Positions 385-1,258 of a stretch of 1,258 nucleotides of DNA are shown here, in pieces. Origin of the DNA: Escherichia coli. Lineage in GTDB: Bacteria > Pseudomonadota > Gammaproteobacteria > Enterobacterales > Enterobacteriaceae. The first letter of the stretch is position 1. Each line of letters opens with the position of its first letter. The notes beneath the pieces were generated by a model. It saw only the letters and a program-made list of their open reading frames with translations, was not told where the DNA came from and ran no database searches. The DNA is taken from NCBI RefSeq assembly GCF_003334385.1, contig NZ_QOWN01000119.1. One strand, written 5' to 3'. Made by a program: the position numbers and the translations under genes.

Positions 385-1250
385 CCGCCAGACTAAGTGA
401 CAGCCACACGGTTGTCAGCCTGTGTTCTGCTCTGGAAATACACCGCAGCAGTTACCGGTACTGGCGAAAACGACGCGATACGGTTAATCCGGCACGAGTC
501 AGGTTGTGCAGCGAAATACGCCGGGCGTGGAACCAAAGTCGGGGCTCTGCGGGCGCGCGCACTCTGGCTGAAATGCTGACTCAAAACGGCGTCCCGATGA
601 GCCGTTACCGTGCCGGACGTCTGATGAAATATCTGAACCTGAGCAGTTGTCAGCCCGGAAAACATCAGTATAAAAATGCCCGTCAGGAGCATACCAGCCT
701 GCCGAATCTGCTTGAGCGTCAGTTCGCAGTACCGGAGCCAGACCGGGTATGGTGTGGAGATATTACGTATCTCTGGGCAGGAAATCGCTGGTGCTATCTG
801 GCGGTTGTTATGGATCTTTTTGCCCGCAGGGTTATCGGCTGGAGTCTGTCAGCGCATGCCGATACCGCACTGATAAGCAGTGCCCTGCGGATGGCCTATG
901 AGACGCGTGGCCAACCCCGGGATGTCGTGTTCCATAGCGACCAGGGAAGCCAGTATACAGGCCTTAAATATCAACAACTTCTCTGGCGTTGCAGAATAAA
1001 TCAAAGCGTCAGTCGGCGGGGAAACTGCTGGGATAACAGCCCCATGGAACGCTTCTTCCGCAGTCTGAAAACAGAATGGGTGCCAACGAATGGTTACGCA
1101 GGCAAGGACGAGGCCCGGCAGCAAATTAATGATTACATATTGAACTACTACAACAGCGTCAGACCTCACCATTATAACGGTGGGCTGACGCCGGAAGAGT
1201 CAGAGAACAGATACCATTTTTACTGTAAAACCGTGGCCAATATTACTTGA
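73..1250 (+). CDS. IS3-family transposase OrfAB (transframe fusion via -1 frameshift at 333..339; about 392 aa) with DDE integrase catalytic core
   Basis: OrfA residues 1-89 joined to the -1 frame read from 339 ([13 protein letters not shown]...) through to stop TGA at 1248..1250. The OrfB part carries the catalytic D in WCGDITYL (759..761), D in FHSDQGSQY (939..941) and E in [13 protein letters not shown] (1047..1049), 36 residues after the second D, followed by a K seven residues later. This is the classic retroviral-integrase-like DDE(35)E + K signature of IS3 transposases. The ORF track's 504..1250 is the TTG-initiated tail of this frame. Confidence 0.88.
333..339 (+). other. Programmed -1 ribosomal frameshift slippery heptamer A-AAA-AAG (A6G)
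   Basis: The orfA zero-frame codons are AAA (334..336) and AAG (337..339), encoding K88 and K89, giving the X-XXY-YYZ phasing. The -1 frame (positions divisible by 3) is the orfB frame and is open from 201 to 1250. This is the same motif and phasing used by IS911 and other IS3-family members. Confidence 0.85.
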
Positions 1251-1258
1251 CCACTACA
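1233..1258 (-). repeat. Right terminal inverted repeat (IRR), ending ...CCACTACA-3'
   Basis: Inverted complement of 1..26 (20/26 identity) with a 3' CA terminus. It contains the orfB stop codon (1248..1250) and a TTGACC hexamer at 1247..1252. Confidence 0.85.

What the first reader, a model, noticed from the sequence alone, without database searches (positions are those of the whole stretch)
1233..1258. orfB stop codon embedded in IRR, with an outward-facing TTGACC -35 hexamer at the right tip
The TGA stop (1248..1250) lies inside the right inverted repeat, so translation ends within the transposase binding site. TTGACC (1247..1252) is a near-consensus -35 hexamer ending 6 bp from the tip and pointing outward. 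On circularisation or head-to-tail dimer formation with a 3-bp spacer, it would sit 17 bp from CACACT at left-end 9..14 (preceded by TG at 6..7), resembling the junction promoter described for IS911 and IS2. The better -10 match TAAATT (14..19) would be about 22 bp away, which is too far, so which -10 is used is unresolved. The same -35 could also form hybrid promoters with adjacent host DNA and activate downstream genes.
Basis: partly seen in the sequence, partly recalled or inferred. Interest (0 to 1): 0.45.

Follow-up and report, generated by a model that had tools for sequence, protein, structure and literature searches.

The report
Split junction promoter of an IS911-like element
The window is a complete, recently active IS911-like insertion sequence, and the TTGACC at its right tip is the conserved outward-facing half of the known "junction promoter" that forms only when the two ends are joined in a transposon circle, so the finding is real but ordinary.

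Summary
The TGA stop of orfB is at 1248-1250, inside TTGACC (1247-1252), 6 bp from the right tip. With a 3-bp spacer this hexamer lies 17 bp from CACACT (9-14), which is preceded by TG at 6-7.

The window is a whole 1258-bp IS3-family element. Identical copies occur in about 900 E. coli RefSeq records, and it makes 3-bp target duplications. Its tips are almost the same as those of IS911. A natural IS911 right end-GAG-left end junction in an E. coli plasmid shows the same TTGACC-17 bp-CACACT geometry.

In 50 distinct relatives (OrfB 57-95% identical), TTGACC and the stop never change. Equivalent left-end positions 9-12 changed at least 24 times. The last sense codon changed 11 times at its first two bases and never at its third base, which is the first T of TTGACC.

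Left-end positions 10, 12 and 14 are conserved (nAnAnT). The A of the rival TAAATT is not conserved. This settles the -10 as positions 9-14.

I found no evidence that hybrid promoters with host DNA are selected (3/39 sites, background rate), no complete outward promoter, and no natural junction of this element itself.

Verdict: an orthologue of the IS911 junction promoter (pjunc). It is a new member of a known kind and of low interest.

The parts
1..26 (.). Left terminal inverted repeat (IRL), TGTAGTGGCACACTAAATTTGGCCAC
   Evidence: pair I1, 20/26 match with 1233-1258. Searches show the same ends in 50 relatives. It differs from IS911 IRL at positions 3 and 15 only.
1233..1258 (.). Right terminal inverted repeat (IRR), GTGGCCAATATTACTTGACCACTACA
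   Evidence: Flanked by the 3-bp direct repeat GCC in L001. The tip ...TTGACCACT[A/T]CA is found in 51/51 relatives.
1247..1252 (+). Outward-facing -35 hexamer TTGACC (5/6 to TTGACA), 6 bp from the tip; proposed -35 of the junction promoter
   Evidence: Invariant in 51/51 distinct right ends. Zero inferred substitutions at IRR positions 9-12 against 24 at the same IRL positions. Same hexamer at the same distance in the published IS911 IRR (PMC2909936) and in the natural IS911 junction.
1248..1250 (+). TGA stop codon of orfB / orfAB, embedded in the -35 hexamer
   Evidence: The stop is always TGA and always ends 8 nt from the tip in relatives. The preceding codon varies (ACT 28, AGT 17, TGT 5, CGT 1) but its third base is always T.
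6..14 (+). Proposed extended -10 of the junction promoter: TG (6-7), G (8), CACACT (9-14)
   Evidence: Geometry (17 bp from TTGACC with a 3-bp spacer). Identical in IS911. Among relatives the hexamer is CATAGT 24, CACACT 8, CACAGT 6, TACAGT 5 and others, with A10 in 49/51, A12 in 48/51 and T14 in 50/51. Inferred changes at positions 9-15 are 8, 2, 11, 3, 9, 1, 14.
20..47 (+). Probable resident weak promoter (pIRL-like): TTGGCC (20-25), 16-nt spacer, TATTCT (42-47)
   Evidence: Read from the sequence. It falls below the threshold of the consensus scan. Both hexamer positions are conserved in relatives as TTGGCC and TATCAT / TATGAT / TAAGAT. The assignment is an inference by analogy with IS911.
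36..50 (+). Hairpin GGTGA-tattc-TCACC around the pIRL -10; it would be present only in transcripts that start upstream (junction promoter or read-through)
   Evidence: A hairpin is predicted at the same place in all 50 relatives, with different compensating stem sequences.
73..384 (+). orfA (ATG 73, Shine-Dalgarno AGGTGA 63-68, stop 382-384)
   Evidence: NCBIfam transpos_IS3 N-terminal part. RefSeq annotates 'IS3 family transposase, programmed frameshift'.
333..339 (+). Slippery heptamer A AAA AAG for -1 frameshifting, preceded by an in-frame ATT (330-332) in the orfB frame
   Evidence: RefSeq joins two segments as a programmed frameshift.
330..1250 (+). orfB frame (DDE catalytic part of the transposase)
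   Evidence: open frame. NCBIfam NF033516 transpos_IS3 at 268.7 bits, cut-off 160.

Best explanation
The window is a complete, intact IS3-family insertion sequence of the IS911 lineage. It moves by copy-out-paste-in.

TTGACC at 1247-1252 is the -35 half of a split promoter. The -10 half is TGgCACACT at 6-14 of the left end.

In an integrated copy the two halves are 1.2 kb apart and point away from each other, so they are silent. When one end is transferred next to the other, in a figure-of-eight that becomes a circle or in a head-to-tail dimer, the ends are abutted. They are separated by the 3 bp that also gives the 3-bp target duplication. The hexamers then sit 17 bp apart. A sigma-70 promoter results that reads into orfA/orfAB, with a predicted start near position 20-22. 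It gives a burst of transposase for the integration step. Integration cuts the junction and destroys the promoter.

The orfB stop TGA overlaps the hexamer because the reading frame runs to within 8 bp of the tip.

Shown here: the anatomy, the geometry, the 3-bp duplication, the orthology of the tips with IS911, and the asymmetric conservation. Inferred from IS911 and IS2: circle formation, promoter activity and its role.
For: Identity of the element:
- It matches the IS3 transposase model.
- RefSeq annotates a programmed frameshift.
- 938 E. coli RefSeq records have a best match at 99% identity or more, with up to 17 places per genome.
- 3-bp direct repeats flank 17 of 39 distinct insertions, and 4-bp repeats flank none.

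Orthology with IS911:
- OrfB is only 58% identical to IS911 OrfB, yet the tips are nearly the same.
- IS911 has ...TTGACCACTTCA / TGAAGTGGCACACTGAATTTGGCCAC (published IRR in PMC2909936).
- The window has ...TTGACCACTACA / TGTAGTGGCACACTAAATTTGGCCAC.
- L002 carries a natural IS911 IRR-GAG-IRL junction with TTGACC-17 bp-CACACT.
- The review PMC9330008 states that IS911 has an outward -35 in IRR and a -10 in IRL. They are joined with a 3-4 bp spacer in the circle, and the promoter is about 40-fold stronger than the resident one.

Conservation across 50 distinct relatives plus IS911:
- TTGACC is present in 51/51.
- On a tree built from the internal sequence, IRR positions 9-12 show 0 changes and IRL positions 9-12 show 24.
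- The codon before the stop changed 11 times at its first two bases and 0 times at its third base, the first T of TTGACC. This is the opposite of what coding constraint alone predicts.
- IRL positions 10, 12 and 14 (A, A, T, which are -10 positions 2, 4 and 6) changed 2, 3 and 1 times. Positions 9, 11, 13 and 15 changed 8, 11, 9 and 14 times.
- In 24/51 relatives the hexamer is CATAGT (4/6 to consensus).
- Position 3 of the two ends varies together (A in both or T in both). The ends therefore co-evolve where the requirement is symmetric, and stay different at positions 9-11.
Against: - No promoter activity, transcription start or circle has been measured for this element.
- No IRR-NNN-IRL junction of this element was found in 5,426 complete E. 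coli genomes, in metagenome contigs or in viral contigs.
- CACACT matches TATAAT at only 3 of 6 positions.
- The consensus scan calls no promoter in the window. It also calls none at the real IS911 junction, so this scan cannot decide the question.
- Invariance of TGA could be due to the stop codon alone.
- Invariance of the tip could reflect different donor and target roles of the two ends in catalysis rather than promoter function.
- The primary IS911 papers that map the hexamers (PMC1169952, PMC125674) were not available. The assignment of CACACT as the IS911 -10 therefore rests on geometry and conservation.
Confidence: 0.8

Rival explanations
1. The promoter-like look is incidental. TTGACC is conserved only because it contains the orfB stop codon and lies in the catalytic tip of the donor end. 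The conserved difference between IRL and IRR reflects different roles of the two ends in cleavage and strand transfer. No functional junction promoter exists in this element.
For: Positions 1-8 are identical in both ends and invariant, so the tip is clearly constrained by the transposition chemistry. TGA covers three of the four asymmetric positions. CACACT is a poor -10 (3/6), and the consensus scan finds nothing. IS2 shows that left ends can be shaped by a donor/target asymmetry (PMC3219604).
Against: The first T of TTGACC is a third codon position. It never changes, while the first two bases of that codon changed 11 times. TGA never became TAA in 51 ends, although that would keep the stop. 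The IRL pattern nAnAnT with TG upstream is the pattern of a -10, not of a symmetric binding site. IS911, which has the same tip sequence, is reported to form a strong junction promoter (PMC9330008). In IS2 the same paper attributes the asymmetry of the left end to the promoter itself.
Confidence: 0.1
2. The outward -35 is maintained mainly because it builds hybrid promoters with a -10 in the neighbouring host DNA. This switches on downstream genes and benefits the host.
For: The hexamer is 6 bp from the tip and points outward. Hybrid promoters of this kind are documented for other insertion sequences (PMC9330008; PMC12095673).
Against: Only 3 of 39 distinct right flanks carry a -10-like hexamer (at least 4/6, with A2 and T6) at 16-18 bp. 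This equals the 7.8% background rate at other offsets in the same flanks. In L001 the element is inserted within an autotransporter gene encoded on the opposite strand. The flanks in L001 and L095 have no -10 at the right place. No complete outward promoter exists in the window.
Confidence: 0.05
3. The junction promoter exists but uses TAAATT (14-19) as its -10, for example with a shorter effective spacer or an unusual geometry.
For: TAAATT matches TATAAT at 4 of 6 positions, better than CACACT.
Against: It would be 22 bp from the -35 with a 3-bp spacer, and 3 bp is the only duplication length seen. Its essential second-position A (IRL position 15) is A in only 10/51 relatives (G 23, T 18), and this is the most changeable position of the tip with 14 changes. 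IS911 itself has TGAATT there.
Confidence: 0.03

Closest known systems
IS911 junction promoter pjunc (Ton-Hoang et al. 1997; Duval-Valentin et al. 2001, cited from reviews)
   Same: Same family and same architecture: orfA, A AAA AAG frameshift, orfB ending in IRR. Both make 3-bp duplications. The -35 TTGACC lies at the same distance from the right tip. The left tip carries the same TGgCACACT, and the spacing is 17 bp with a 3-bp spacer.
   Different: It is a different element. OrfB is 58% identical, and the only aligned stretches of the 3' half are 65-66% identical at nucleotide level. The tips differ at positions 3 and 15. Nothing has been measured for this element.
ISEc31 (name used in RefSeq annotation)
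   Same: About 92.5% nucleotide identity over the full 1258 bp. L004, a copy of that lineage (OrfB 95% identical), has the same right tip and CACAGT at 9-14.
   Different: Identity is below the 95% usually taken for isoforms (my own knowledge of ISfinder practice). The window's own copies are annotated only as 'IS3 family transposase', so I could not establish its ISfinder name.
IS2 Pjunc
   Same: An outward -35 in the right end and a -10 in the left end, with a mandatory 17-bp spacer at the minicircle junction (PMC3219604).
   Different: IS2 uses a 1-bp junction spacer and a left end that terminates in TA to make the Pribnow box. Here both ends terminate in CA/TG and the spacer is 3 bp.
Junction promoters of IS30, IS21, IS256 and ISCth4
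   Same: The same principle of a transient promoter assembled at abutted ends (PMC9330008; PMC7780238).
   Different: Unrelated transposase families, with different spacer lengths (for example 5-6 bp in ISCth4) and different hexamers.

Membership tests
IS3 family insertion sequence | Two consecutive overlapping reading frames joined by -1 frameshifting on an A AAA AAG-type motif, giving a DDE transposase | tested here: met
   orfA 73-384, slippery site 333-339, orfB frame open to 1250. NF033516 transpos_IS3 at 268.7 bits, cut-off 160. RefSeq annotates 'programmed frameshift'.
IS3 family insertion sequence | Imperfect terminal inverted repeats beginning TG and ending CA, with 3-4 bp target duplications | tested here: met
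   IRs at 1-26 / 1233-1258. GCC duplication in L001. 17/39 sites have a 3-bp repeat.
IS911-type junction promoter (pjunc) | Outward-facing -35 hexamer inside IRR close to the tip | tested here: met
   TTGACC at 1247-1252, 6 bp from the tip. Invariant in 51/51 relatives.
IS911-type junction promoter (pjunc) | Inward-facing -10 hexamer inside IRL | tested here: met
   TGgCACACT at 6-14, identical to IS911. A10, A12 and T14 are conserved while 9, 11 and 13 vary. The match to consensus is weak (3/6), so the call rests on the TG motif and on conservation.
IS911-type junction promoter (pjunc) | 16-18 bp spacing when the ends are abutted with the natural junction spacer | tested here: met
   6 + 3 + 8 = 17 bp with a 3-bp spacer. 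The 3-bp length is supported by the duplication length and by the natural IS911 junction with GAG.
IS911-type junction promoter (pjunc) | The element actually forms circles or head-to-tail dimers with abutted ends | tested here: inconclusive
   No junction of this element was found in E. coli genomes, metagenome contigs or viral contigs. Absence is expected for a reactive, transient junction. Only the IS911 junction between two truncated copies was found.
IS911-type junction promoter (pjunc) | Measured promoter activity and a mapped start site at the junction | not testable with these tools
   Needs a reporter fusion or 5'-RACE. The consensus scan is uninformative because it also misses the IS911 junction.
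IS-host hybrid (fusion) promoter | A -10 hexamer in the flanking host DNA 16-18 bp from the IS-borne -35, with a co-oriented downstream gene | tested here: not met
   Absent in L001 and L095. Present in 3/39 flanks, equal to the 7.8% background.
Complete outward promoter (Pout) | Both -35 and -10 inside the IS end, reading outward | tested here: not met
   Only 6 bp follow the -35. There are no promoter-like sites on either strand of the window.

The most novel reading that the evidence does not exclude
The split promoter is part of a larger conserved control unit in this IS lineage. The 5' leader that only junction-promoter or read-through transcripts contain carries a covarying hairpin (36-50). 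It wraps the -10 of the resident promoter and is nested inside a helix (24-29 with 62-67) that covers the Shine-Dalgarno sequence. Transcripts from the junction promoter would then be handled differently, in stability or translation, from those of the resident promoter. In addition, the Salmonella 'IsrC' sRNA would be a domesticated transcript from a remnant of this same IS lineage.
Probability: 0.25. Interest if true: 0.4.

Novelty: new member of a known kind. Interest (0 to 1): 0.15.

Why it matters
The finding matters little on its own. It shows that the transient junction promoter worked out for IS911 is conserved base for base in a common E. coli element and across a wide gammaproteobacterial lineage (Enterobacterales, Vibrionales, Alteromonadales).

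The comparative pattern gives sequence-only evidence that the promoter halves are under selection beyond the needs of coding and end recognition. The relevant features are the invariant wobble base, the absence of any TGA-to-TAA change, and the nAnAnT pattern in the left end.

Practically, the outward -35 means that insertions of this element can in principle activate neighbouring genes. The sites examined show no sign that this is common.

Tried and rejected
1. A search for natural junctions of this element:
- E. coli genomes gave only an IS911 junction and two-piece non-junction hits.
- The metagenome scan returned 9 contigs. None carries IS-like sequence beside the match; the matches are CCACTACA-N-TGTAGTGG palindromes in unrelated contexts.
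- The viral scan returned nothing.
- No further junctions were present among the fetched loci.

2. The consensus promoter scan of the window found nothing. It also found nothing at the real IS911 junction, so the tool's thresholds exclude this class of promoter and the negative result carries no weight.

3. The primary IS911 and IS2 papers were not held (PMC1169952, PMC125674, PMC321474, PMC2546779). I could not read the published hexamer assignment or start site.

4. Hybrid promoters showed no enrichment.

5. TAAATT as the -10 is rejected on spacing and on lack of conservation.

6. RNAalifold on the leader alignment returned only an invariant helix, 5-12 with 20-26, with no covariation. MAFFT gaps put the real hairpin out of register, so the inner-helix pair counts understate it.

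7. Shine-Dalgarno accessibility computed for transcripts starting at 21 versus 54 differed only modestly (0.12 versus 0.24 unpaired). An alternative partner at 98-102 exists, so this was inconclusive.

8. I could not establish the ISfinder name of the element from annotation.

Full report
**What the window is.** The 1258 bases are one complete insertion sequence.
- It has terminal inverted repeats at 1-26 and 1233-1258, matching at 20 of 26 positions.
- orfA runs from ATG 73 to 384. A slippery A AAA AAG lies at 333-339. A second frame is open from before 330 to the TGA at 1248-1250.
- The second frame matches the NCBIfam IS3 transposase model at 268.7 bits, against a cut-off of 160.
- RefSeq annotates identical copies as 'IS3 family transposase, programmed frameshift'.
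- 938 E. coli RefSeq records have a best match at 99% identity or more. There are up to 17 places per genome, on chromosomes and plasmids.
- In L001 the copy is flanked by the 3-bp duplication GCC.
- The closest named element in the annotation is ISEc31, at about 92.5% nucleotide identity.
- OrfB is only 58% identical to IS911 OrfB.

**The observation.**
- TTGACC is at 1247-1252, TGA is at 1248-1250, and six bases follow to the tip.
- With a 3-bp spacer, TTGACC lies 17 bp from CACACT (9-14). TG at 6-7 is one base upstream of that hexamer, which is the extended -10 arrangement. TAAATT (14-19) would be 22 bp away.
- A single 5-of-6 match to TTGACA is not remarkable. The window has 13 such matches on both strands against 12.2 expected. 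The case therefore rests on comparison with other elements.

**Comparison with IS911.** A search of E. coli genomes with an artificial IRR-NNN-IRL junction found no junction of this element. It did find a natural IS911 junction on a family of pig-derived plasmids (L002).
- The junction reads ...ggtggccagtttttgTTGACCacttca gag tgaagtggCACACTgaatttggccacc... It lies between two truncated IS911 copies.
- The right-end sequence equals the published 36-bp IS911 IRR (PMC2909936).
- The window differs from IS911 in the tip region only at repeat positions 3 and 15. The -35, the -10 candidate, the TG motif and the 17-bp geometry are therefore shared.
- A review states that IS911 carries an outward -35 in IRR and a -10 in IRL. 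They are joined with a 3-4 bp spacer in the minicircle and give a promoter about 40-fold stronger than the resident one (PMC9330008).
- The same principle with a mandatory 17-bp spacer is described for IS2 (PMC3219604).
- The primary IS911 papers were not available.

**Comparison across the lineage.** One scan of species-representative genomes with OrfB returned 80 loci from Enterobacterales, Vibrionales, Alteromonadales and others, at 57-95% OrfB identity. I located both ends in 61 copies, which gave 50 distinct end pairs.

Results for the right end:
- TTGACC is present in 51 of 51 ends, counting IS911.
- The stop is always TGA and always ends 8 nt from the tip.
- On a neighbour-joining tree built from the internal sequence only, parsimony infers 0 changes at IRR positions 9-12. 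It infers 24 changes at the same positions of IRL.
- The stop codon could explain three of those four positions. It cannot explain why TGA never became TAA.
- It also cannot explain the fourth position, the first T of TTGACC, which is the third base of the last sense codon. That codon is ACT, AGT, TGT or CGT. Its first two bases changed 11 times and its third base never changed. This is the reverse of what coding constraint predicts and indicates a non-coding requirement.

Results for the left end:
- Positions 10, 12 and 14 (A, A, T) changed 2, 3 and 1 times. Positions 9, 11, 13 and 15 changed 8, 11, 9 and 14 times.
- The conserved pattern is nAnAnT, which corresponds to -10 positions 2, 4 and 6.
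- The commonest hexamer is CATAGT (24 of 51), a better -10 than the window's CACACT.
- The second base of the rival TAAATT is A in only 10 of 51 ends.

Position 3 of the two ends varies together. The ends therefore co-evolve where the requirement is symmetric, and stay different exactly where the promoter halves lie.

**Mechanism.** The best explanation is the IS911 one.
- In an integrated copy the two half-promoters are separated and inert.
- Joining the ends, in a circle or a head-to-tail dimer, brings them 17 bp apart. The spacer is the 3 bp that also sets the duplication length: 17 of 39 sites have 3-bp repeats and none has 4-bp repeats.
- A sigma-70 promoter with a near-consensus -35 and an extended -10 then reads into orfA/orfAB.
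- Integration destroys it.

The steps shown here are the anatomy, the geometry, the spacer length, the orthology and the selective pattern. Circle formation, activity and role are inferred from IS911 and IS2.

One nuance concerns the phrase 'transposase binding site'. In IS911 the N-terminal DNA-binding part of the transposase protects the subterminal part of the repeat, and the external part is left free for the catalytic domain (PMC2909936). The stop and -35 thus lie in the catalytic tip, not in the main binding block (GTGGCCA, 1233-1239).

**Hybrid promoters.** The -35 could pair with a host -10. Among 39 distinct right flanks, only 3 have a -10-like hexamer at 16-18 bp. This equals the 7.8% background rate at other offsets.
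- L001 and L095 have none.
- In L001 the element sits within an autotransporter gene that is encoded on the opposite strand.
- No complete outward promoter exists in the window.

Activation of neighbours is therefore possible but shows no sign of being selected.

**Negative searches.**
- Exact-pattern scans for TTGACCACTACA-N(1-6)-TGTAGTGG returned nothing from viral contigs.
- They returned nine metagenome contigs. None carries IS-like sequence next to the match; the matches are CCACTACA-N-TGTAGTGG palindromes in unrelated contexts.
- Absence of junctions in assemblies is expected for a reactive intermediate and does not count against the model.
- The consensus promoter scan misses the IS911 junction as well.

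**Things seen in passing.**
1. Rfam's isrC family matches 69-191 at 150 bits. It also matches the same place in close relatives, but not in IS911 or the marine relatives. The Salmonella island sRNA IsrC (PMC2330248) therefore looks like a transcript of a remnant of this IS lineage.
2. All 50 relatives have a hairpin around the resident -10, near 34-52, with different compensating stems. An outer helix, 24-29 with 62-67, covers the Shine-Dalgarno sequence. Its one variable pair is G-C in 24 sequences, A-U in 14, G-U in 7 and unpaired in 5. Only junction or read-through transcripts would contain these elements. Accessibility calculations were inconclusive.
3. Right ends abut sequences that resemble the element's own repeat. 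One case is 3 bp from an inverted IS911 right end. This agrees with the targeted insertion reported for IS911 (references in PMC7986276).
4. In L095 a fragment 1-187 is followed directly by a full copy, and the whole is flanked by TTA.

**Verdict.** The feature is the orthologue of a well-known mechanism in a close structural relative of IS911. It is a new member of a known kind, of low interest (0.15).

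Noticed in passing
window 69-191 (+); also L004 453-575, L007 1066-1188, L009 1066-1188, L014 1059-1181, L042 1061-1183: Rfam RF01387 'isrC Hfq binding RNA' matches the start of orfA over the full model (150 bits, E 2.5e-38). The Salmonella island sRNA IsrC (envF/msgA locus, PMC2330248) therefore appears to be a sense transcript from a remnant of this IS lineage. The passages of that paper that mention IsrC do not describe an IS origin.
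   Followed up: partly
window 24-68 (hairpin 36-50; outer helix 24-29 with 62-67): A hairpin enclosing the resident -10 (TATTCT) is predicted in all 50 relatives, with several different compensating stem sequences. The outer helix pairs CACCUG with CAGGUG over the Shine-Dalgarno sequence, and its one variable pair covaries: G-C 24, A-U 14, G-U 7, other 5. Only transcripts starting upstream of about 24 (junction promoter or read-through) would contain it. The predicted effect on accessibility is modest.
   Followed up: partly
L002 1600-1700 (E. coli plasmid NZ_CP062900 and five sister plasmids): A natural IS911 IRR-GAG-IRL head-to-tail junction is preserved between two truncated IS911 copies, with an intact TTGACC-17 bp-CACACT arrangement. 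It looks like a fossil of a tandem dimer or a circle-derived structure.
   Followed up: partly
L003 1620-1670; L004 1620-1680; L005 1620-1670: The right end of this IS abuts target sequences that resemble its own inverted repeat. In L004 it sits 3 bp from an inverted IS911 right end, and in L003 it sits 2 bp from TGCAGTGGATCACAAAAT. This agrees with the targeted insertion next to repeat-like sequences reported for IS911 (references in PMC7986276).
   Followed up: partly
L095 601-2045 (E. coli 13KWH46, inside tssC; the same structure is likely in four other genomes whose hits have the same 1445-bp, two-piece pattern next to tssC): A left-end fragment (IS positions 1-187) is followed directly by a complete copy, and the whole is flanked by the 3-bp repeat TTA. 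A likely origin is an insertion of the IS into a resident copy followed by recombination.
   Followed up: partly
window 330-339: An ATT codon in the orfB frame lies immediately before the slippery A AAA AAG. From memory, IS911 initiates a separate OrfB protein at an AUU codon in the same place; I did not check this.
   Followed up: no
L086, L087, L088, L091, L092 (metagenome contigs): Five unrelated contigs share ...aaaaaatattcgTTGACCACTACAttTGTAGTGG..., a -35-like hexamer fused to a perfect palindrome. It looks like a promoter-operator of some other system and is not an IS junction.
   Followed up: no
window 5-12 with 20-26: Each left end contains an internal inverted repeat, GTGGC...GCCAC. 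RNAalifold reports it as the only consensus helix. It is nearly invariant, with no compensatory changes, so its conservation may simply reflect the inverted repeat itself.
   Followed up: no
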